Assembly: GCA_030066755.1 (NCBI GenBank)
Contig: JASJAX010000001.1
Location: forward strand, 14,341 to 78,340
Length of the DNA stretch: 64,000 nt
Direction: 5' to 3'
Source of the DNA: Acidimicrobiia bacterium
GTDB taxonomy: Bacteria; Actinomycetota; Acidimicrobiia; Spongiisociales; UBA5794
Shown here: piece after piece, positions 30,361 through 40,677 of the stretch
Layout: every line of letters starts with the position of its first letter
Numbering within the stretch: the stretch's first letter is position 1
Made by a program: the position numbers and the translations under genes
Notes under the pieces: generated by a model
Database searches by the model: none
Seen by the model: only the letters and a program-made list of their open reading frames with translations
What the model was told of the DNA's origin: nothing

Positions 30361-30741
30361 TCAGGAGCGCCGCGCCACCGCATCGATCTGCACCTTGGCG
30401 CCCTTCCACAGGAAGGCGACTCCGTAACTGCATCGCGCGGGGTACGGCTCGCGGAACCGCTCGGCGTAGATGCGATTCATGTCGTCGAGATCGTCTTCGT
30501 CGACGAACTGGATGCTGGTGTGCACGACCTGCTCGAGCGACGACCCAGCTTCCTCGAGGATCGCCTCGAGGTTGCTGATGGCCCGATGAAACTCGGGGTC
30601 GAAACCGCCGGGGACAAAGTCGCCCGATCCGGGGTCGCGGCCGATCTGTCCGGTCACCCAGACGTGATCGCCGTCGATGCGGACATGAGGGTACGGACCG
30701 CGCGGCTCCGGTGCTGATTCGGTCGTGATGGTTTCGCTCAT
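30361..30741 (-). CDS. RidA-family (YjgF/TdcF) reactive-intermediate deaminase
   Basis: 126 aa. PYPHVRIDGDHVWVTGQIG...PARCSYGVAFLWKGAKVQID is the RidA signature. Confidence 0.85.
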   Translation of the reverse strand: MSETITTESAPEPRGPYPHVRIDGDHVWVTGQIGRDPGSGDFVPGGFDPEFHRAISNLEAILEEAGSSLEQVVHTSIQFVDEDDLDDMNRIYAERFREPYPARCSYGVAFLWKGAKVQIDAVARRS

Positions 30742-30757
30742 TGCAGCTCCTCTCAGC

Positions 30758-31627
30758 TCATCCGCTCCGCATTCGTTCGAGCGTCCGCTCCGGTCCGTCG
30801 GGCGTCAGCCAATCCACCTCGATGATGACCTCGTCGACACCGACTTCGGCCAGCACCGGCATCGCCGCCGCCGCCGCATCGAGCGGCCCGGTGAGCCGAA
30901 CGACGAACCGCCCGCTCGTCCGCCCGGCCTCCTCCGCCGCCGCCCGCATCCGCTCGGAGCCGTCCCGCAACGCCGCGAGATTCAGATCGTCGGCTCGCTG
31001 GAAAGCCAGCCATCCGTCGCCCAGCCTCCCCGCACGACGCACGGCAGCCTTCGACATGCCGCCGATCAGGATCGGGATGTGGTGCTCCGGCGTCGGGAAA
31101 CTGAGGAGGCCGGCCGGCACCTCGTAGTGCTCATAGGAAGCGGCGTGCGGCCGCCCGGTCCACACGTCGTTGATGATCTCGATCCACTCGTCGAGCCGCC
31201 TGCCGCGACTCTCGAACGGCACACCGACGGCGTCGAACTCCTCCGCAAGCCACCCGGCGCCGGTCCCGATGATGATGCGGCCGTGGCTGACCACGTCGAG
31301 GGTTGCGAGCTGCTTGGCCAAGATCAGTGGGTTCCGGAGTGCGGCCAGCAGGATCGCCACGCCGACGTCGACGTGTTTCGTAGCCGTTGCGGCCATCGTG
31401 AGGGCGACGATCGCATCGAAACGGGGATGTGCCGCATCCCAGGTGATTGCGCCGTCGTCGGAGTAGGGGTACTTGGACCGTGATTCCTGGACCATCACCA
31501 CGTGATCGCTCACCCAGACTGAATCGAACCCGGCCGCTTCTGCTCTGCTCGCAGCGTCGGCGAGATGCACCTCGTGGACGATTGGACCGAAGACCGGGAG
31601 CTTGGCGCCGATACGAATGTGGTCCAT
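30758..31627 (-). CDS. LLM-class flavin/F420-dependent oxidoreductase
   Basis: Luciferase-like TIM barrel (GFDSVWVSDH...). ATG at 31627. Confidence 0.8.
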   Translation of the reverse strand: MDHIRIGAKLPVFGPIVHEVHLADAASRAEAAGFDSVWVSDHVVMVQESRSKYPYSDDGAITWDAAHPRFDAIVALTMAATATKHVDVGVAILLAALRNPLILAKQLATLDVVSHGRIIIGTGAGWLAEEFDAVGVPFESRGRRLDEWIEIINDVWTGRPHAASYEHYEVPAGLLSFPTPEHHIPILIGGMSKAAVRRAGRLGDGWLAFQRADDLNLAALRDGSERMRAAAEEAGRTSGRFVVRLTGPLDAAAAAMPVLAEVGVDEVIIEVDWLTPDGPERTLERMRSG

Positions 31628-31649
31628 GGGGTGTTGCTCCGTGGGTGAT

Positions 31650-32417
31650 TCAGGTGAGCCAGCCGCCGTCGACGACCAGCACGTGGCCGGTGACGTAGCT
31701 CGCATCGTCGGACGACAGGAAGTCGACCGCAGCTGCGATCTCTTCGGGACGTCCGAGGCGCCCGACCGGGATGTGGGTCGCCGCCAGCTGGTCCAGCGCA
31801 TCGGGGTCGTCTGACAAGGATCGAGTGAGATCCGTGTTGACGGTACCCGGGGCAACGGCGTTGACTCGAACGCCCGTCGCAGCGAGTTCGCGGGCAGCGG
31901 CGATCGTCAGCATGCGCACCGCACCCTTCGAGGTGTCGTAGGGAACCATTGGAGTCGTCGATGCGGTGAACGACGATGTCGACGCCAGGTTGACGATCGC
32001 CCCGTGACCGCGGGGGATCATACGTTTGGCCGCCGCCTGCAGAACCAGGAAGACCCCACGCAGATTGACACCCATCAGGGTGTCGAACTGCTCAGGTGTG
32101 ATGTCGACGAGCGGCGTGACAAAGCCGATTCCGGCGTTGTTGACCACGGTTCCCAACGGTTCCTCGTCGTCGATCCGCTCGACCGCAACGGCAACCGACG
32201 CCGCGTCGGCCACATCGAGCTCCAGGCCGCGGACGTCGAGCCCGGCGCTTCGAAGGGCAGCCGCCGTCGCTTCCGCTGCAGTCCCGTCCACGTCGGCGAT
32301 GAACACGACGTCACCACGGCGTGCAAGGCGTTCGGCGATGGCACGACCAATGCCTCTGGCGCCCCCGGTTACGAGGGCGCCAGAAGCTCGGTCATCAGTG
32401 GCGGACACGTCCGCCAT
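31650..32417 (-). CDS. SDR-family oxidoreductase
   Basis: TGGARGIGRAIA...NNAGI...YDTSKGAV...PGTVNT. Confidence 0.85.
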   Translation of the reverse strand: MADVSATDDRASGALVTGGARGIGRAIAERLARRGDVVFIADVDGTAAEATAAALRSAGLDVRGLELDVADAASVAVAVERIDDEEPLGTVVNNAGIGFVTPLVDITPEQFDTLMGVNLRGVFLVLQAAAKRMIPRGHGAIVNLASTSSFTASTTPMVPYDTSKGAVRMLTIAAARELAATGVRVNAVAPGTVNTDLTRSLSDDPDALDQLAATHIPVGRLGRPEEIAAAVDFLSSDDASYVTGHVLVVDGGWLT

Positions 32418-32438: not shown

Positions 32439-33317
32439 TCAGCTGCAGGGCGGCAGACCCTCGGTCGGTCCAATGATGTCGGTGTACATCTGGTCGAGCG
32501 TGCCTCGGGAGATGTAGTACCCGAGCCAGCCGTTGACGTACTCCTTCCAGACGATGTCACCGCGCGGCACGGCCCAAGCGCCGTACTCCTGCGAGAACGG
32601 ATTGTCCGGGTTCAGCACCGATGTCGACGGGTTCTCCCGCACGAACGGGATCGCCAGGTACTCCTCGACCACGATGGCGTCGGCACGGCCTGATGCCACC
32701 TCGAGGAACGCCGGGGCCTGCTCGAGACCAACCAGTTCAGCCTCGGGGAACTGCGCCTCGATCAGGTTGGCGGCCGTCGATCCCTGCAGCGCCGTCATCG
32801 TGATGTCGGAGCTGTTCAGCTGATCGAGCGACGTGATGCCAGCGTCGTTGTTGACCACGACAACTTGGCGATACGGCACATACGGGCACGTGAACCAGAG
32901 CTGCTCGAGTCGGGCCGGGCGACCAACGAGCCCCACGGAAATGAGGTCGAACTGGTCGGCCAGCATGCCCGGAATCAACGCATCGAACTCCAGGTCCTGG
33001 ATGTTCAGCGTGACACCGAGATCGTCTGCGAGCATCTTGACGAGCTCGACGTCGTAACCGGCGGGCTCGTCGTTGGCATCGCGATACATCTGCGGCTCGA
33101 ACTGCAGCGTCATGCCGACGATCAGCTCGCCGCGATCCTTGATTGCATCGAGGCGATTTCCGTCGAGCACCGCGGCCGCACCGGTCATGCTCGACGAGTC
33201 ACCGTCGCCGTTTCCGTTGCCATCGCCGTCGGCGCCGCCCTCATCGTCTCCCGAACATGCCGCTACGGCCATCGCGAAGACAACGAGCAGAATCGCCCAC
33301 TTCCTGTACTTGCTCAC
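32439..33317 (-). CDS. amino-acid ABC transporter substrate-binding lipoprotein (family 3)
   Basis: Lipobox AVAACSG and an SBP_bac_3-like fold. Confidence 0.8.
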   Translation of the reverse strand: MSKYRKWAILLVVFAMAVAACSGDDEGGADGDGNGNGDGDSSSMTGAAAVLDGNRLDAIKDRGELIVGMTLQFEPQMYRDANDEPAGYDVELVKMLADDLGVTLNIQDLEFDALIPGMLADQFDLISVGLVGRPARLEQLWFTCPYVPYRQVVVVNNDAGITSLDQLNSSDITMTALQGSTAANLIEAQFPEAELVGLEQAPAFLEVASGRADAIVVEEYLAIPFVRENPSTSVLNPDNPFSQEYGAWAVPRGDIVWKEYVNGWLGYYISRGTLDQMYTDIIGPTEGLPPCS

Positions 33318-34201
33318 GGGTTCGTACTCCCTTCCTCCTCGTACATGTCTTCTGGAGGGTCATACTCCAGCGACCCGATATCGGCGGTGTGACCCGCCAG
33401 ATCCTCCTCTGTGGTTCCCTTCTCCTTTGCAGCCGTCACGGCCGCCTGCAATGCCCGCAACCGCTCGACCTTCCGTCGGGCGAATGGCGACCAGGTGCGG
33501 GCCTTTGAGGTGAGGACGTCAACGAGGGCGTACCGGCGTTCCAGGTACTTCACGCCGAAGTAGACCGCCGTCGTCAGGACCAAGTAGATGAGCACGACGG
33601 CGAGGTAGACCTCGAAGTAGCGGAACGTACGGTTGGCGAGCCGGAAGCTCACCCGGAACAGCTCCGGAACGCCGATCAGATAGACCAGCGACGAGTCCTT
33701 GATCATCCCGATGAACATGTTCCCGGTTGGGGGGATCACGATGCGCACGGCCTGCGGCAGGATGACCCGGAAGAAGGTCTGCGCCCTCCCCATCCCCACA
33801 GAGAGCGCGGCTTCGCGTTGCCCGTGCGGTATTGCCTGAATCCCGCTGCGGAAGATCTCGCCCAGCCACGCCGAATACTGCAGCGTGAGCGCGAAGATCC
33901 CTGCCTGGATCGCTGAGATGCTCAGCTCGAACTGGATCGCGATGCCGTAGTAGACGAACACGATGAACACGAGCAGCGGAATCGCTCGGAAGATGTTGAT
34001 GTAGGCAGCCATGATCGGCTGGATGATGCGATTCGTCGACATCCGCAAGAGCGCAACTGCCAGCCCGGCGAACGTCGCCAGCGTGAACGCCACGAAGGCG
34101 ATGAAGAGCGTGAGCCACACACCGTCGATGAAGATCTCCCGGTTCTCCCAGATGAACTCCCAACGGAAAGTGGCCTGCGCGAGGAAGAACGAAGTGATCA
34201 C
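33314..34201 (-). CDS. amino-acid ABC transporter permease with a C-terminal cytoplasmic extension
   Basis: His/Gln-type permease: EAA loop ([21 protein letters not shown]). About 75 extra acidic C-terminal residues. Confidence 0.85.
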
Positions 34202-34986
34202 AAGATCGCCCTGATGAACTCGCGGGTACGTTCCTCCTGGGCGTCCGAGAAGATCGCGGCGTCACCTTGTTCGACGATCATGCCCTCGTCCATGAAGATG
34301 TTGAGGTCGCCGACTTCCCGGGCGAACCCCATCTCGTGCGTCACGACGACCATCGTCATGCCGGTCTCGGCGAGTGCTCGCATCGTGTAGAGAACCTCGC
34401 CGACCAGCTCCGGGTCGAGAGCCGAAGTCGGCTCGTCGAACAGCATCACCCGGGGTTCCATGACGAGCGCCCGGGCAATCGCAACCCGTTGCTGCTGACC
34501 GCCCGACAACATGGACGGATACGACCCGAGTTTGTCGAGCAGACCGACCCGGTCGAGATAGGTTGCAGCAGCCATCTCCGCCTCGTCCTTGGAAATCGAC
34601 TTCACCCGCCGGAGCGCCAGGGTCACGTTCTCGAGTGCGGTCAGGTGGGGGAACAGGTTGAACTGCTGGAACACCATCCCCACTTGCTTGCGCAGTTCAC
34701 GGGGCCGGCCCTTGCTGAGCTTCTCACCATCCAGCCCAGGGCCGTACTCCTTGCCGTCGAACCACACGGACCCGCTCTGCGGCTTCTCCAGGAGGTTCAT
34801 GACTCGCAGCAGGGTCGACTTGCCGGATCCGGACGGACCGAAGATGACGATGTGCTGGCCCTGGGCGACGTCGAGGTCGACGCCCTTGAGCACGTGGTTC
34901 GAACCAAACGACTTGTGAATCTGGCGCAGCCTGACCACCGGCTCCGTCGTTCCCGGAGAGGCCGTGTGGCCTGAGGGCGCCGTCAT
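34198..34986 (-). CDS. amino-acid ABC transporter ATP-binding protein
   Basis: Walker [10 protein letters not shown], signature [15 protein letters not shown], Walker [11 protein letters not shown]. Confidence 0.9.
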
Positions 34987-35240
34987 GCATCGAACTCCGT
35001 CGGTTGAGACTCGGCGGTGTGACCGTGCCGCGTCAACAGCTCGACGATGGCGTCTTCGGCAAACCGCAGTCCATCGTGGACTCCGAGACGAAAGGCGCTC
35101 TGCCCCTTTGCGTCGTTGTAACCGATCTCCTCCTGAATCCGCTCGAGCAGGGCGGCAAGGCCGTCCACCAGCGTTGCGCCTTCATCGGCGACGCGGGCAC
35201 GTTGGTCCTGCTCGAGCGAGTTCCCCGGAGGTGCGGTCAT
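34983..35240 (-). CDS. small hypothetical protein (85 aa)
   Basis: ATGA-type overlaps at both ends within the operon, which suggests translational coupling. No family recognised. Confidence 0.4.
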
Positions 35241-35440
35241 ACGGCAGTCATCTCCCGGTAGTCAGTAATGACACGATCCAGCGCGTCGGGGTCGAAACCG
35301 ACCACCTCATGGTCGCGGAAGAGGAGCAGCGGCACAATCAGATCTTGCGACCGGGCACGCAGTTCCTCCCGGGCCGCCTCGCTCTGTCGGATGTTGCGAT
35401 CGTCGAACTCGACGGAATGCGCATGCAGATAGTCACGCAC
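35237..35440 (-). CDS. glutaredoxin/NrdH-like protein: annotated ORF lacks the CxxC N-terminus and may extend upstream through an in-frame TGA to a GTG at 35509
   Basis: The ORF (GTG at 35440) encodes only the C-terminal two-thirds of a Grx/NrdH fold (VVGFDPDAL). In frame upstream: GTG-DRPILYSLNTDARTPT-TGA-QECCR. See the findings section. Confidence 0.5.
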   Translation of the reverse strand: MRDYLHAHSVEFDDRNIRQSEAAREELRARSQDLIVPLLLFRDHEVVGFDPDALDRVITDYREMTAV

Positions 35441-35697
35441 GCGACAACACTCCTGTCAGGTCGGGGTGCGAGCGTCCGTGTTGAGGCTGTACAGAATCGG
35501 TCGGTCCACGCCCTCACCCTCCTCATCCGTTCTCACGCTCTCCGAGTACTTTAGCGTACTCGCCCCGGCGCTGCCGGGGCGGGCGACGTTCGGTCGCCTG
35601 TACCTGGTACCTGAACCGTGCCGAGTGGTTCCTTGTACGCACCCGCACCGACTGGTCGCAGGGGCTCCAAACAGGCGTTCGCGCAGCAAACTGCAAT

Positions 35698-35717: not shown

Positions 35718-36122
35718 TTACCAAGCGCGACTGCGAGTGGGGGTGATCCGAATTGGGACCGAGTAGTCGGCCGCAAAGGAGGCAGGGGTCCAGCCGTTGC
35801 GCTCGATGCGTTCGGCGTACTTGGCAACGAACGCCGGGACTTCGTGGGCCGGCGCATGGCCGGGAACGATCCGGGCCCGACCTTCGATCGTGACGATGTC
35901 GCCACCAACCCCGTTCCCGTCGAGGTTGAGCGCAACCCGTGGATTCGCCTCGATATTGCTGAGCTTGGCAACCGCGGGTTTCGAGTAAACGAGGAACTCA
36001 TCGTCCTCGAGCAGGAACCACACCGCCGACGCCTGCGGCTGCCCATTGGGCCGCACCGTGGTCAACCAGATGATGAGTTCAGAATCCAATCGAGCAGCTG
36101 CGCGCGGGTTCTCGGGGAGCAT
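35718..36122 (-). CDS. pyridoxamine-5'-phosphate-oxidase-family protein (probable F420-dependent PPOX class)
   Basis: 134 aa. LIIWLTTVRPNGQPQASAVWFLLEDDEFLVYS is the split-barrel fold. Confidence 0.75.
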   Translation of the reverse strand: MLPENPRAAARLDSELIIWLTTVRPNGQPQASAVWFLLEDDEFLVYSKPAVAKLSNIEANPRVALNLDGNGVGGDIVTIEGRARIVPGHAPAHEVPAFVAKYAERIERNGWTPASFAADYSVPIRITPTRSRAW

Positions 36123-38043: not shown

Positions 38044-40677
38044 ATGGCGGAAACCGACCCTGCCGTCGGCCTCACCCAGGCCCAGGTACGCGATCGAACC
38101 GAACGCGGCCTCAGCAACGTGCAGCCGGAGAGTCCCTCCCGTTCAACCCGGGAGATCATCCGGGCCAACGTCATCACTCGGTTCAACATCCTGCTCTCGA
38201 TACTTCTCGTAGTGATCCTCGTTGCGGTCCAGGCGCCACGTGATGCGCTGTTCGGCATCGTGATGGTCACCAACGCCGCGATCGGCATCATCCAGGAGCT
38301 CCGCGCCAAGGCAACGCTCGACCGGCTTGCGCTGCTCACAGCTCCTCGTGCGCGGGTGGTACGAGAGGGAACCGTTCGCGAAGTCGACATTGCAGGGGTG
38401 GTCGTCGACGACATCATCGAACTCCGGAGCGGAGACCAGCTCCCAGTGGATGGTGACGTTGTGACCTCACGAGGCCTCGAGATCAACGAGTCGCTGCTCA
38501 CCGGCGAGAGCGACCCGATCCTCAAGGAGCCGGGCGACGTTGCGCTGTCGGGAAGCTTCGTTGCGGCGGGAAGCGGTCGGTATCGGGCGACCCAGGTGGG
38601 GAGCAACGCATACGCCGCCAAGCTCGCCCGCGAGGCAAAACGATTCACGCTGGTCCGCTCCGAGCTCCGCGACGGAATCGACTGGATCCTCGCCGGCGTC
38701 TCCTGGGCAGTCGGTCCCGTCATCGTGCTCCTCGTCTGGACGTCGATCCGGGCCGACGCCGAGATTCGGGAAGCCCTCGCGTCGGCAGTCGCAGGTGCCG
38801 TCGGCATGGTTCCTCAGGGCCTCGTGTTGTTGACGTCGATCGCGTTCGCCGTCGGCGTGATTCGCCTCGGGCGGCGCAACGTCCTCGTCCAGGAGCTGCC
38901 GGCGATCGAAGGATTGGCCCGCGTCGACGTTGTCTGTTTCGACAAGACCGGCACGCTGACCGAAGGCCGCCTCGTCGTGCAGGATGTCATCACGCTGCAT
39001 GGCGGCGATCCGGTGGCGCCCCTTGGAGCCCTCGGCGCGGCCGAACCGGACCCCAACGCGACGCTGAAGGCGGTGATCCGGCGCTTCCCCGCTCCCGACG
39101 GATGGCACGCGTCGACCGCGGTCCCGTTCTCCTCCGCCCGCAAGTGGTCCGGGGCTTCGTTCGACGGCCGCGGCACATGGGTGCTCGGTGCCCCCGAGAT
39201 TCTGGCGCCGGACGACTCGCAGGTGGCATCGATCGCCGACGAACACGCCGCGAGAGGCCGCCGGGTGCTCCTTCTGGCGTACAGCGAGCTCCGCCTCGAA
39301 ACCGAGCGGGCTCCGCGCCGGCTGGAGCCACATTCGGTGCTCGTGCTGGGCGACCAGATCCGTACGGATGCAGCGCAAACCCTCCGCTACTTCGCCGACC
39401 AGGGTGTCCAGGCCAAGGTGATCTCCGGCGACCACCCCGATACGGTCGCCGCGATCGCTCGCGATGTCGGCGTGCCAGGCTCCCAGCACGTCGTCGATGC
39501 TCGGACCATGCCGGCGGAGCCAGAGGCACTCGCCCAGGTGGTCGAGTCGGGGACCGTCTTCGGCCGGGTGACTCCCTATCAGAAACGAGCGATGGTCAAG
39601 GCACTCCAGTCGCAGGGTCACGTCGTGGCCATGACCGGCGATGGCGTCAATGACGTGCTCGCACTGAAGGACGCCGACATTGGCATCGCCATCGGAACGG
39701 GTTCGGCCGCAGCACGCTCCGTCGCCCAGCTCGTTCTCATCGACGGCAAGTTCGACACGCTGCCCGGTGTCGTTGGGGAAGGGCGGCGCGTCATCTCGAA
39801 CATCGAACGTGTGGCCAACCTCTTCGTGACCAAGACGGTCTACGCCATCTTCATCGCCCTCGCCGTTGGGCTCGCCGGACGGACGTTTCCGTTCCTCCCC
39901 CGTGATCTGACCCTGGTCGGCTCGGTCACGATCGGTATCCCCGCCTTCTTCCTCGCCCTCGCTCCAACGACACGTCGAGCAGCTCCCGGCTTCGTTTGGC
40001 GGGTAACCCGGTTCGCGGTACCAACCGGAGTCGCTGCGGGCCTCGCGACGTTCTTCGCATACGAGTTAGCGATCAGCGAGGAAGTGACCCTGGCTGAGGC
40101 GCGCACCACGGCGACACTGGTGCTCTCGGCCCTCGGCCTCTTCGCTCTCGGCATGGTGGCGCGGCCCCTGCGGCCGTGGAAGAAGGGCCTGATCTGGTCG
40201 ATGGCTGGGCTGCTCCTGATCCTCCTGCTCTCCGGCCCTTCGCAGGAGTTCTTCGAACTCGACCTGCCTCGTACGGCGATCCTCCTTGCTTCCCTCGGTG
40301 TGGTTGCGATCGCCGGGTTCCTCATGATCGGGACATTGCGCGCCGTCGGCTGGATCAAACACGTTCCCGAGCTGCTGCGAGAGAATCCGCCGACTGCTCG
40401 TGGGTTCTGGCGGTCGATTCGAACACGGATCGGTGCGTTTGGTGGTCCTGCGGAACCTCAGGCGCTCGATCGAGAAGCCTTCACCGTTCCGCCCTCCGCA
40501 GCTGCCGAGGAGGAGACGGACGCGTCGCCGGAACCGGAGCCGCCACCAGAACCGGAAATCGCGGCCGTCGACGCGCCACCGGCGTTTGATCCGATCGAGC
40601 ACGCCCGAACCATCGACTGGTTCGATCCGGATGTCGATCCGATCGACATCCTCAACGAGCCCACGAGTGGCGATTGA
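38044..40677 (+). CDS. cation-transporting P-type ATPase with a Pro/Glu-rich C-terminal extension
   Basis: DKTGTLT phosphorylation motif, MTGDGVNDVLALKDADIGIA hinge, TGES-like actuator. About 10 TM helices. About 130 aa of low-complexity C-terminus. Confidence 0.9.
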   Translation: MAETDPAVGLTQAQVRDRTERGLSNVQPESPSRSTREIIRANVITRFNILLSILLVVILVAVQAPRDALFGIVMVTNAAIGIIQELRAKATLDRLALLTAPRARVVREGTVREVDIAGVVVDDIIELRSGDQLPVDGDVVTSRGLEINESLLTGESDPILKEPGDVALSGSFVAAGSGRYRATQVGSNAYAAKLAREAKRFTLVRSELRDGIDWILAGVSWAVGPVIVLLVWTSIRADAEIREALASAVAGAVGMVPQGLVLLTSIAFAVGVIRLGRRNVLVQELPAIEGLARVDVVCFDKTGTLTEGRLVVQDVITLHGGDPVAPLGALGAAEPDPNATLKAVIRRFPAPDGWHASTAVPFSSARKWSGASFDGRGTWVLGAPEILAPDDSQVASIADEHAARGRRVLLLAYSELRLETERAPRRLEPHSVLVLGDQIRTDAAQTLRYFADQGVQAKVISGDHPDTVAAIARDVGVPGSQHVVDARTMPAEPEALAQVVESGTVFGRVTPYQKRAMVKALQSQGHVVAMTGDGVNDVLALKDADIGIAIGTGSAAARSVAQLVLIDGKFDTLPGVVGEGRRVISNIERVANLFVTKTVYAIFIALAVGLAGRTFPFLPRDLTLVGSVTIGIPAFFLALAPTTRRAAPGFVWRVTRFAVPTGVAAGLATFFAYELAISEEVTLAEARTTATLVLSALGLFALGMVARPLRPWKKGLIWSMAGLLLILLLSGPSQEFFELDLPRTAILLASLGVVAIAGFLMIGTLRAVGWIKHVPELLRENPPTARGFWRSIRTRIGAFGGPAEPQALDREAFTVPPSAAAEEETDASPEPEPPPEPEIAAVDAPPAFDPIEHARTIDWFDPDVDPIDILNEPTSGD

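What the first reader, a model, noticed from the sequence alone, without database searches (positions are those of the whole stretch)
35237..35520. Glutaredoxin/NrdH-like gene with an in-frame TGA at the CxxC position: candidate selenoprotein (UxxC)
The called ORF (GTG at 35440) encodes only the C-terminal two-thirds of a glutaredoxin/NrdH fold. It includes an NrdH-like VVGFDPDAL motif but lacks the first beta-strand and the CxxC redox motif. Reading the same frame upstream gives GTG(35509)-D-R-P-I-L-Y-S-L-N-T-D-A-R-T-P-T-TGA(35458-35456)-Q-E-C-C-R, which then joins the ORF. This restores a beta-1-like ILYS segment and places the TGA where the N-terminal Cys of the redox motif should be, giving U-Q-E-C. 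A GGAGG lies 7-8 nt upstream of the 35509 GTG. Twelve nt after the TGA, the mRNA can form a hairpin, C-GCGUGC/GCAUGC-G, with a 10-nt loop containing GU. That is the position where a bacterial SECIS element would be expected. The gene leads an operon of oxidoreductases plus an ABC importer. The alternatives are a pseudogene with a nonsense mutation or a sequencing error. The loop between beta-1 and the redox motif is longer than in canonical Grx/NrdH, which lowers my confidence.
Basis: partly seen in the sequence, partly recalled or inferred. Interest (0 to 1): 0.7.

Follow-up and report, generated by a model that had tools for sequence, protein, structure and literature searches.

The report
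Unannotated selenocysteine glutaredoxin gene, mis-called as truncated

Summary
The true gene is 35509..35237 (minus strand, 90 aa), with UGA at 35458-35456.

- The same in-frame codon is TGA in the window, in 38 of 38 homologous loci from different species, and in 106 metagenomic contigs. One family member has TGG and none has Cys.
- Residues on both sides of the TGA are conserved as protein. The QECCR bridge shows 82 synonymous against 2 nonsynonymous codon differences. In 24 of 118 unique sequences there is no in-frame start codon after the TGA until codon +32 or later.
- The UGA aligns with the first Cys of CxxC in Cys-containing YruB-type glutaredoxins. It also aligns with the native selenocysteine of Clostridium oremlandii Grx1 (PDB 7c10, 38% identity).
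It meets all four published bacterial SECIS criteria and is kept by compensatory changes within the window's clade.
- A conserved 85-aa protein of unknown function accompanies the gene and is sometimes fused to it.

Not shown: selA, selB, selC or selD in this genome. Only 64 kb plus flanking loci could be searched, and none was found.

Novelty: a new, unannotated member of a known kind. Interest is moderate.

The parts
35237..35509 (-). Full coding sequence of the glutaredoxin-like selenoprotein: 90 aa plus the TGA terminator, MDRPILYSLNTDARTPT-U-QECCRVRDYL...REMTAV. Annotation calls only 35237-35440 (67 aa).
   Evidence: The frame is conserved as protein on both sides of the TGA in 38 species. 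Conservation begins at the start codon. Pfam Glutaredoxin scores 41 bits against 22.9 for the stump.
35456..35458 (-). In-frame UGA, inferred selenocysteine codon (residue 18), at the N-terminal position of the U-Q-E-C redox motif.
   Evidence: TGA in 39 of 39 genomic sequences and in 106 metagenomic family members, with 1 TGG and 0 TGY. It aligns with the first Cys of CxxC in YruB-like homologues and with the native Sec position of cGrx1/7c10. The model places it in the first turn of helix alpha1.
35518..35522 (-). Shine-Dalgarno-like GGAGG, 8 nt upstream of the GTG start at 35509.
   Evidence: Read directly. In the window's clade the start codon falls at this position, codon -17; across the whole family 55 of 118 unique sequences have ATG, GTG or TTG there.
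35414..35453 (-). Candidate bacterial SECIS hairpin. The lower stem is GGAGUG/CAUUCC. The upper stem is 8 bp (35443-35436 with 35427-35420). The apical loop is UGACUAUC and starts 20 nt after the UGA. Folding energy is -16.5 kcal/mol.
   Evidence: meets all four criteria of the published bSECIS model (PMC13188914); 83.6% of cells paired in this register across 44 clade-A sequences, against 47% or less for slid registers; one column pair switches G-C (14) to U-A (12); clade-A native energy -13.2 against -7.0 kcal/mol for synonymous-randomised sequence (z -2.4); the window alone has z -1.3.
35401..35414 (-). Second mini-hairpin, CGUCG-AGUU-CGACG, sequence-invariant in the window's clade. Its role is unknown.
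   Evidence: synonymous variation is almost absent across these codons (TCC 36/37, GTC 38/38, GAG 38/38, TTC 39/39, GAC 39/39). It is always paired but never varies, so there is no covariation evidence. Its loop starts 46 nt after the UGA, outside the 16-37 nt bSECIS range.
34983..35240 (-). 85-aa partner protein of unknown function, with invariant PPGNSL, NDAKG and [14 protein letters not shown] motifs and no conserved Cys visible in the alignment. Its ATG overlaps the selenoprotein's TGA terminator (ATGA).
   Evidence: Directly downstream in 36 of 38 genome loci and in the same operon in the other two. Adjacent in 80 of 82 metagenomic loci with room. Fused in frame in L021 and in P0055 and P0064. 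No Pfam hit and no PDB sequence hit. Model is a two-helix hairpin, pLDDT 79, with no significant fold match.
32439..34986 (-). Polar-amino-acid-type ABC importer: ATPase 34198-34986, permease 33314-34201, family-3 solute-binding protein 32439-33317. The genes overlap at their stops and starts, which suggests one operon.
   Evidence: Pfam ABC_tran, BPD_transp_1 and SBP_bac_3. Adjacent in about 23 of 38 genome loci, but not directly adjacent in any clade-B locus with room (0 of 39). It is therefore context for the window's clade, not part of the core.
30361..32417 (-). Downstream genes on the same strand: SDR (31650-32417), luciferase-like monooxygenase (30758-31855) and RidA (30361-30741).
   Evidence: Pfam. 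Syntenic in only some loci.

Best explanation
This is a functional gene for a 90-residue glutaredoxin-fold selenoprotein. Translation starts at GTG 35509. At UGA 35458-35456 the ribosome inserts selenocysteine instead of terminating, directed by a stem-loop in the mRNA that starts about 12 nt downstream (a bacterial SECIS element bound by SelB with Sec-tRNA). Translation then continues to the TGA at 35239-35237. The product has a U-Q-E-C active site at the start of helix alpha1. The selenolate would attack a disulfide or similar oxidised substrate, and the Cys three residues later would resolve the selenylsulfide, as in the characterised selenoprotein Grx1 of Clostridium oremlandii. It works together with the co-transcribed 85-aa protein, which in some species is fused to it. 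Shown here: recoding of the UGA, from comparative evidence; the fold and active-site placement; selection for a downstream hairpin; the linkage to the partner. Inferred: that the inserted residue is Sec, that SelB reads this particular hairpin, the catalytic chemistry, and any link to the adjacent transporter.
For: TGA, never TAA or TAG, in 39 of 39 genomic sequences from 38 species plus the window. A third-base-agnostic DNA pattern found 106 TGA, 1 TGG and 0 TGY among metagenomic family members. Protein-level selection upstream: -12..-1 shows 467 synonymous against 124 nonsynonymous differences, with variation by codon position 52/59/574. Between the TGA and the annotated start, QECCR shows 82 against 2, with codon positions 1/1/83. 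Conservation ends at the start codon (3 against 279). 24 of 118 unique sequences have no in-frame start after the TGA before codon +32. 53 of 54 database homologues are 63-70 aa stumps, all truncated at the same place. Pfam Glutaredoxin rises from 22.9 to 41 bits. The AlphaFold model has the canonical b1-a1-b2-a2-b3-b4-a3 topology with the Sec position in the first turn of a1. The best PDB match is 7c10, cGrx1 (38% identity, TM 0.84 on target, rmsd 1.7 A). Its NT-C-PH-C aligns with PT-U-QE-C, and cGrx1 is natively a selenoprotein with U at that position (PMC7642778). Cys homologues with TPT-C-xx-C align in the same way. The hairpin meets the published bSECIS criteria, is paired in 83.6% of cells against 47% or less when slid, and has one compensatory pair. 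Native folding energy is well below synonymous-randomised energy only in this zone. The divergent clade B has a different sequence forming a bulged-U hairpin with a GUU loop 23 nt after the UGA. The window gene itself terminates at TGA, which argues against reassignment of TGA. The Sec machinery exists in another order of the same class (bioRxiv 10.64898/2026.04.03.716425).
Against: No selA, selB, selD or tRNA-Sec was found in the window or in 1.18 Mb of homologous loci. The rest of each genome could not be searched, so the Sec trait of these organisms is unproven here. Only 24 of 51 clade-A and 37 of 67 clade-B sequences pass all four bSECIS criteria. From the loop sequences, many clade-A loops (ACUA, ACUU) lack the expected G. 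Covariation evidence is thin: one pair with double changes, and the sequences are phylogenetically related. The window's own hairpin is only z = -1.3 against synonymous shuffles. No close Cys ortholog exists, so the Cys/Sec pairing rests on relatives of about 30-40% identity. There is no expression, proteomic or selenium-labelling evidence.
Confidence: 0.88

Rival explanations
1. The UGA is decoded, but as a standard amino acid (Trp, Cys or Gly) through near-cognate read-through or a variant genetic code, not as selenocysteine.
For: No Sec machinery was detected in any DNA examined. One family member has TGG (L152). The only full-length database translation, P0021, shows Gly at this position.
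Against: The window gene's own terminator is TGA, so TGA is not generally reassigned. If Trp, Cys or Gly were acceptable, sense codons should appear often across 146 sequences, yet only one TGG does, on a contig cut off at its end. The position is the nucleophilic Cys of CxxC, and it is Sec in the nearest characterised relative. A SECIS-like hairpin is under selection exactly where expected. The Gly in P0021 fits a gene caller run under genetic code 25; that is an inference.
Confidence: 0.06
2. There are two separate translation units: a conserved 17-codon upstream ORF (leader peptide) ending at the TGA, followed by an independently initiated 67-aa protein starting at GTG 35440.
For: Every gene caller makes this call. 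GTG is present at that position in 94 of 118 unique sequences.
Against: The five codons between the TGA and that GTG (QECCR) vary almost only at third positions (82 synonymous, 2 nonsynonymous), so they are translated in this frame, and they contain no start codon. 24 of 118 sequences have GTT, GTA or GTC there and no start before codon +32. The 67-aa product would lack strand beta1 and the whole active site of the fold.
Confidence: 0.02
3. The gene is a pseudogene with a nonsense mutation, or the TGA is a sequencing or assembly error.
For: A single window could not exclude this. One metagenomic member (L126) is frameshifted.
Against: The identical TGA appears in 145 sequences from independent assemblies and habitats: sponge-associated MAGs (by record title) and varied environmental metagenome contigs. 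Purifying selection acts on both sides of it. Four independent NCBI assemblies carry an identical partner protein next to the same 67-aa call.
Confidence: 0.01

Closest known systems
Selenoprotein glutaredoxin 1 of Clostridium (Alkaliphilus) oremlandii, cGrx1 (PDB 7c10, 7c12; PMC7642778). This is the 'Glutaredoxin (Grx), PF00462, UxxC' entry among experimentally verified prokaryotic selenoproteins (PMC13188914, Table 1).
   Same: Small single-domain glutaredoxin fold with Sec as the first residue of a U-x-x-C motif at the start of helix alpha1. It is the best structural and sequence match (38% identity, TM 0.84 on target, phmmer E 2e-9), and its Sec (crystallised as Cys) aligns residue for residue with the UGA.
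   Different: The motif is U-Q-E-C-C, not U-P-H-C: it lacks the Pro and has an extra adjacent Cys. There is a conserved 6-residue insertion (LNTDAR) between beta1 and the active site. An 85-aa partner is obligately linked and sometimes fused. No methionine sulfoxide reductase showed up among the neighbours that were domain-searched or read from ORF translations; no dedicated search for one was run. The hosts are Actinomycetota (Acidimicrobiia, Thermoleophilia) rather than Clostridia.
YruB-family glutaredoxin-like proteins (NCBIfam TIGR02196), Cys-containing.
   Same: This is the best NCBIfam match. It shares the T-P-T-C-x-x-C context and the ...VP...[IV]VGFD... core, and these proteins serve as the Cys homologues that pair with the Sec.
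   Different: The score is 53 bits against a curated cut-off of 88.55, so it is not a member by NCBI's criterion. The first Cys is replaced by Sec, and there is a loop insertion.
   Same: Same fold and similar size. 1h75 and 4hs1 appear among the structural matches.
   Different: Much weaker sequence match: 26.6 bits against a cut-off of 85.75. No nrdE, nrdF or nrdI was seen among the window neighbours that were domain-searched.
Uxx-star, UXX-star family 2 and HUGP/GUXX-star glutaredoxin-like selenoproteins (NF041212, NF041211, NF045501).
   Same: They are glutaredoxin-like selenoproteins, recognised through truncated annotations.
   Different: Scores are far below the cut-offs: 22.6 against 66, 12.7 against 100 and 17.6 against 325. 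By my reading of the family name, which I did not check, those families carry Sec near the C-terminus. Here Sec is at the N-terminal redox motif.
Bacterial SECIS element (E. coli fdhF type; consensus model in PMC13188914, Fig. 2A).
   Same: A stem-loop in the coding sequence immediately 3' of the UGA. The window's element meets the criteria for loop size, stem length, G position, spacing and energy. Clade B has a bulged U and a GU-containing apical loop, which from my recollection (not checked here) resembles fdhF.
   Different: Stem sequences and register differ between clades. Many clade-A loops lack the consensus G. A second, invariant hairpin lies 46 nt downstream, outside the model's range.

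Membership tests
Bacterial selenoprotein gene (Sec-UGA recoding) | In-frame UGA conserved among orthologues, with protein-level conservation on both sides | tested here: met
   TGA in 39 of 39 genomic sequences and 106 metagenomic members. Synonymous changes dominate upstream and in the QECCR bridge.
Bacterial selenoprotein gene (Sec-UGA recoding) | The UGA aligns with a conserved, usually redox-active Cys in homologues (a Cys/Sec pair) | tested here: met
   It aligns with the first Cys of TPT-C-xx-C in YruB-like proteins and with Cys13 (native Sec) of cGrx1. The pairing homologues are only about 30-40% identical. No close Cys ortholog was found.
Bacterial selenoprotein gene (Sec-UGA recoding) | A bSECIS stem-loop downstream of the UGA: 3-9 nt loop, 4-16 bp upper stem, G in the first two loop positions, 16-37 nt spacing, MFE of -7.5 kcal/mol or lower | tested here: met
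   The window has an 8-bp stem, loop UGACUAUC, spacing 20 nt and -16.5 kcal/mol. Across the family, 24 of 51 (clade A) and 37 of 67 (clade B) pass all four. A hairpin was predicted in this zone in nearly all clade-A sequences displayed, with 83.6% pairing and one compensatory pair and an energy excess over synonymous shuffles.
Bacterial selenoprotein gene (Sec-UGA recoding) | selA, selB, selC (tRNA-Sec) and selD present in the same genome | not testable with these tools
   None was found in the 64-kb window or in 1.18 Mb of related loci. A relative order, Actinomarinales, has the machinery.
Bacterial selenoprotein gene (Sec-UGA recoding) | Physical evidence of selenium in the protein (75Se labelling or mass spectrometry) | not testable with these tools
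   This needs an experiment.
Glutaredoxin domain (Pfam PF00462) | Score at or above Pfam's gathering threshold, and a thioredoxin-type fold with the redox motif at the start of helix alpha1 | tested here: met
   41 bits against a cut-off of 22.9, covering profile positions 6-55 of 60. The model has b1-a1-b2-a2-b3-b4-a3 with the Sec position in the first turn of a1. Top PDB matches are glutaredoxins.
Sec-containing glutaredoxin, cGrx1 type | Sec as the first residue of the U-P-x-C active site | tested here: inconclusive
   The Sec position is identical, but the motif is U-Q-E-C, not U-P-x-C, identity is 38%, and the loop insertion and partner protein are not described for cGrx1 in the passages read. 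It is the same kind of protein, but orthology is not established.
YruB-family glutaredoxin-like protein (TIGR02196) | Score at or above NCBI's curated cut-off (88.55 bits) | tested here: not met
   53 bits.
NrdH-redoxin (TIGR02194 / PRK10329) | Score at or above the curated cut-off | tested here: not met
   26.6 against 85.75 bits and 19.1 against 131 bits. No nrdE, nrdF or nrdI appears among the window neighbours that were domain-searched.
Uxx-star and related glutaredoxin-like selenoproteins (NF041212, NF041211, NF045501) | Score at or above the curated cut-off | tested here: not met
   22.6 against 66, 12.7 against 100 and 17.6 against 325 bits. Here Sec is residue 18 of 90, at the N-terminal redox motif.

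The most novel reading that the evidence does not exclude
The selenoprotein and its 85-aa partner form a two-protein, sometimes fused, redox module that has not been described before and depends on selenium with no cysteine fallback. The partner, a helical hairpin with an invariant PPGNSL tail and His/Asp/Glu-rich helices, would be the dedicated substrate, adaptor or metal- or ligand-binding subunit. The invariant second hairpin in the window's clade would be an additional recoding or regulatory RNA element outside the current bSECIS model.
Probability: 0.3. Interest if true: 0.6.

Novelty: new member of a known kind. Interest (0 to 1): 0.45.

Why it matters
The gene is called as a 63-70 aa stump lacking its active site in 53 of the 54 homologues found among 5.8 billion database proteins, including NCBI's own annotation of the source MAG. 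That is a concrete annotation error that can be corrected.

The family is found in sponge-associated Acidimicrobiia MAGs and in a wide range of environmental metagenome contigs, including a Thermoleophilia MAG. My literature searches found little on the selenoproteomes of these groups. If the reading is confirmed, the gene could serve as a simple marker for selenocysteine use in these lineages.

Two features go beyond a routine addition to the list:
- No ortholog uses cysteine (0 of 146), so in this family the Sec looks indispensable rather than interchangeable with Cys.
- The gene is locked to an uncharacterised 85-aa protein that is sometimes fused to it, which points to a specific but still unknown redox task.

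The family also offers a natural comparison of two different SECIS solutions for the same protein.

Tried and rejected
1. Sec machinery near the gene. ARAGORN on the window and on 98 of the related loci, Rfam on the window, and tblastn with authentic E. coli SelA, SelB and SelD against 1.18 Mb all found nothing. Two oddly long ARAGORN tRNA calls (L063, L034) had no Rfam support and are spurious. This is uninformative about the rest of the genomes.

2. Other in-frame TGA genes in the window. A GC3-based screen gave six weak candidates that look like non-coding frames, and it missed our own gene because its upstream arm is short. The screen is too insensitive to use.

3. A single family-wide consensus RNA structure. 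RNAalifold on all 118 unique sequences collapses to almost nothing. The structure has to be analysed clade by clade.

4. This was wrong. It is the same register as most of clade A. Only a CGG/G-initial-codon subgroup uses a stem shifted by about 2 nt.

5. Treating the invariant hairpin 2 as the SECIS. It has a GU-containing loop, but it lies 46 nt from the UGA, outside the 16-37 nt range, and shows no covariation, so it is left unexplained.

6. Identifying the partner protein. There are no Pfam, PDB-sequence or significant fold matches.

8. Literature. There are no papers on 'Spongiisocius'. Haft and Tolstoy 2025 is not held. The deep-Sep paper does not mention glutaredoxin.

9. The pseudogene, sequencing-error and uORF-plus-separate-ORF models are rejected (see the rival explanations).
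Full report
**Observation.** On the minus strand the sequence reads GGAGG (35522-35518), 8 nt, GTG (35509), then D-R-P-I-L-Y-S-L-N-T-D-A-R-T-P-T, TGA (35458-35456), Q-E-C-C-R, and then the annotated 67-aa ORF that starts at GTG 35440 and ends at TGA 35239-35237. Replacing the TGA with Cys and adding the upstream segment raises the Pfam Glutaredoxin (PF00462) score from 22.9 bits (profile 16-55) to 41 bits (profile 6-55). The upstream segment therefore behaves like the missing N-terminus of the domain.

**Comparative test of the TGA.** A search of 5.8 billion proteins returned 54 homologues. Of these, 53 are 63-70 aa and cover only about 70-74% of the query, all truncated at the same point. The exception, P0021, keeps the extension (LNTEGRTPT-G-QECCRV) and shows Gly at the TGA position. 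I take that to be a translation under genetic code 25; this is an inference.

A scan of one genome per species found 38 loci. Nearly all are Acidimicrobiia, many of them sponge-associated MAGs by record title, and one is Thermoleophilia. All 38 have an in-frame stop at the identical position inside an invariant LY[ST]LNT[DE]ARTPT*QECCRVR motif. Conservation starts about five residues before ILYSLNT, at a start codon, and the sequence upstream of that is unconserved and contains stops. The stop is TGA in 39 of 39.

To avoid circularity I scanned metagenomes with ACNCCNACNTGNCARGARTGYTGY, which leaves the third base of that codon free. Of 119 matches, 106 had TGA and all of those are family members. 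One family member had TGG (L152, cut by a contig end). The remaining 12 non-TGA matches were unrelated chance hits, and no family member had TGC or TGT.

**Is it one reading frame?** The invariant residues upstream use many synonymous codons, for example four Thr, four Ala and five Arg codons. Across 118 unique sequences:
- Segment -12..-1 shows 467 synonymous against 124 nonsynonymous codon differences from consensus, with variation by codon position 52/59/574.
- The five codons between the TGA and the annotated start (QECCR) show 82 against 2, with codon positions 1/1/83.
- The three codons 5' of the true start show 3 against 279.

QECCR is therefore translated in this frame, and it contains no start codon. 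In 24 of 118 sequences the annotated start position is GTT, GTA or GTC, and the next in-frame start is at codon +32 or later, or absent. This rules out the model of a leader peptide plus an independently initiated ORF. The breadth of conservation rules out a pseudogene or a sequencing error.

**What the residue is.** The window gene itself terminates at TGA, so TGA is not generally reassigned in this genome. An exhaustive HMMER search with P0021 again found close relatives truncated at residue 25. It also found distant full-length relatives that are Cys-containing YruB-type glutaredoxin-like proteins carrying ...TPT-C-x-x-C.... In the alignment the TGA position falls on their first Cys and the Cys of QEC falls on their second. 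A 6-residue insertion (LNTDAR) precedes TPT.

An AlphaFold2 model of P0021 (pLDDT 71) has the canonical b1-a1-b2-a2-b3-b4-a3 topology. The restored N-terminus forms b1, the insertion forms the b1-a1 loop, and the Sec position lies in the first turn of a1. The best solved-structure match is 7c10, 'dithiol cGrx1' (38% identity, TM 0.84 on target, rmsd 1.7 A). The phmmer alignment puts its NT-C-PH-C on our PT-[UGA]-QE-C. cGrx1 of Clostridium oremlandii is natively a selenoprotein with a U-P-x-C site, and it was crystallised with Sec replaced by Cys (PMC7642778). The nearest characterised relative therefore carries Sec at exactly this position. 'Glutaredoxin (Grx), PF00462, UxxC' is listed among experimentally verified prokaryotic selenoproteins (PMC13188914).

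**SECIS.** Synonymous variation collapses in codons +14 to +24 in the window's clade. Folding 66 nt from the UGA gives native energies 3.6 kcal/mol below synonymous-codon-randomised versions. In that region 32% of sequences have z < -2, against 2-3% in two control regions of the same gene.

Pooling all sequences destroys the consensus, so I split the family into two clades.
- **Clade A (sponge/marine, includes the window).** On 44 sequences this structure is paired in 83.6% of cells, against 47% or less for any slid register. One column pair switches between G-C (14) and U-A (12): the third base of Val+6 pairs with the first base of codon +11. From the alignment, the U-A state occurs both in L014 and in the L021-L038 group, whose proteins otherwise differ, so it probably arose more than once; this is an inference. 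A subgroup with CGG at Arg+5 and a G-initial codon +11 uses a stem shifted by about 2 nt. In the +12..+42 zone the native energy is -13.2 against -7.0 kcal/mol randomised (mean z -2.4), while controls are near zero. The window alone is -12.1 kcal/mol, z -1.3.
- **Clade B (soil/sediment).** A different sequence, CG-U-GAGGGA-GUU-UCUCUC-CG, forms an 8-bp stem with a bulged U and a GUU loop 23 nt after the UGA. This clade uses the rare Phe codon UUU in 64 of 80 cases.

Tested against the published bSECIS model (3-9 nt loop, 4-16 bp stem, G in the first two loop positions, 16-37 nt spacing, MFE of -7.5 or lower; PMC13188914), the window passes all four criteria: 8 bp, loop UGACUAUC, spacing 20 nt, -16.5 kcal/mol. 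So do 24 of 51 clade-A and 37 of 67 clade-B sequences. Judging by the loop sequences, the clade-A failures mostly lack the loop G.

A second mini-hairpin, CGUCG-AGUU-CGACG at +44 to +57, is invariant in clade A. It offers no covariation evidence and lies beyond the model's spacing. I leave it unexplained.

**Sec machinery.** No tRNA-Sec and no SelA, SelB or SelD was found in the window or in 1.18 Mb of related loci. Whole genomes could not be scanned. This is the main gap in the case. A 2026 preprint reports selA, selB, selC and selD in all Actinomarinales genomes examined, which belong to the same class.

**Context and partner.** Downstream on the same strand lie an 85-aa protein with no Pfam hit, an ABC ATPase, a permease, a family-3 solute-binding protein, an SDR, a luciferase-like monooxygenase and RidA. 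The first five genes overlap at their stops and starts.

The 85-aa gene is directly downstream in 36 of 38 genome loci, and in the other two it sits in a rearranged version of the same operon. It is adjacent in 80 of 82 metagenomic loci with room. It is fused in frame to the selenoprotein in L021 and in P0055 and P0064. It has invariant PPGNSL, NDAKG and [14 protein letters not shown] motifs and no conserved Cys visible in the alignment. Its model is a two-helix hairpin (pLDDT 79) with no PDB sequence match and no significant fold match.

The ABC importer is adjacent in about 23 of 38 genome loci but not directly adjacent in clade B. From my reading of the translated ORFs, which were not domain-searched, clade B neighbours include an NTF2-like protein, IclR-type regulators, LLM and SDR oxidoreductases and an aminotransferase. 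The core unit is therefore the selenoprotein plus the 85-aa protein, and the wider role is unknown.

**Source and annotation.** The window matches NCBI Acidimicrobiia MAGs such as GCA_029980145.1, where only the 67-aa ORF is called. No NCBIfam model claims the protein. The best is TIGR02196 (YruB) at 53 bits against a cut-off of 88.55. NrdH and the Uxx-star selenoprotein models score far below their cut-offs.

**Verdict.** This is a genuine, conserved and currently mis-annotated selenocysteine-type glutaredoxin gene. The kind is known, since Sec-glutaredoxins with UxxC exist. This clade adds a new taxonomic range, a loop insertion, a U-Q-E-C-C motif, an obligate partner of unknown function, no Cys orthologues, and two different SECIS solutions. 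Interest is moderate. The decisive missing piece is the Sec machinery in the carrier genomes.

Noticed in passing
window 35401-35414 (-); the same position in L001-L038: The mini-hairpin CGUCG-AGUU-CGACG, 44-57 nt after the UGA, is identical at the nucleotide level across the window's clade, with almost no synonymous variation in five consecutive codons. It lies too far from the UGA for the standard bSECIS model, and its function is unknown.
   Followed up: partly
L152 (metagenome contig end): This is the only family member without TGA. It has TGG (Trp) at the Sec position, and the contig ends 16 codons later. It could be a sequencing error, a decaying copy or a real Trp variant.
   Followed up: no
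P0021 (protein database entry, source 'src'): This is the only full-length translation of the family found in 5.8 billion proteins. It shows Gly at the TGA position and runs on into the partner's PPGNSL motif, as if the gene had been called under genetic code 25.
   Followed up: partly
L021 10001-10600; also P0055 and P0064 (P0061 looks like a more divergent case): In one subclade the selenoprotein and the 85-aa partner form a single fused reading frame (Grx domain, short linker, PPGNSL...). This is a Rosetta-stone type of indication that the two proteins act together.
   Followed up: partly
L003 and L012 (both JAPYNS01, Candidatus Spongiisocius variivorans m_rhze10): The same MAG carries two copies of the selenoprotein-partner pair on different contigs. 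Only one of them lies beside the closely related ABC importer.
   Followed up: no
window 34983-35240 (-): The partner's invariant residues are mostly charged (Arg, Lys, His, Asp, Glu). The best, non-significant, fold matches are Dps-, ferritin- and MJ0754-type helical bundles (E about 1). A dimer forming a four-helix bundle with a metal or ligand site is conceivable but untested.
   Followed up: partly
window 35444-35455 (-): codons Q-E-C-C: The active site is U-Q-E-C-C, with an invariant second Cys immediately after the resolving Cys. cGrx1 (CPHC-F) and the YruB-like Cys homologues examined do not have this second Cys.
   Followed up: no
L126; P0083: One metagenomic member is frameshifted soon after the active site. 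One database protein (P0083, 77 aa) looks like a degenerate copy with the active-site region scrambled. These are occasional decayed copies or assembly errors.
   Followed up: no
L149, L086, L144 (clade B loci): In the soil/sediment clade the pair is followed by an ORF that looks like a 154-aa NTF2-type protein. From my reading of the translated ORFs, which were not domain-searched, it sits among IclR-type regulator, CoA-transferase, aminotransferase, glycine-cleavage P-protein, LLM and SDR genes. That points to an amino-acid-derivative catabolic island rather than the ABC operon.
   Followed up: partly
L063 3476-3564; L034 170-261: ARAGORN calls unusually long tRNAs here: an 89-nt tRNA-Gly(tcc) and a 92-nt tRNA-Pro(cgg). 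Rfam finds no tRNA or tRNA-Sec at either site, so the calls are probably spurious.
   Followed up: yes
window 35718-36122 (-), 38044-40677 (+): Upstream neighbours are a PNPOx-like protein (PF01243, with a weaker hit to F420H2-dependent quinone reductase) and, divergently, an 877-aa protein that the public annotation of the same locus tags as an E1-E2 (P-type) ATPase. Neither is syntenic with the selenoprotein in other species.
   Followed up: partly
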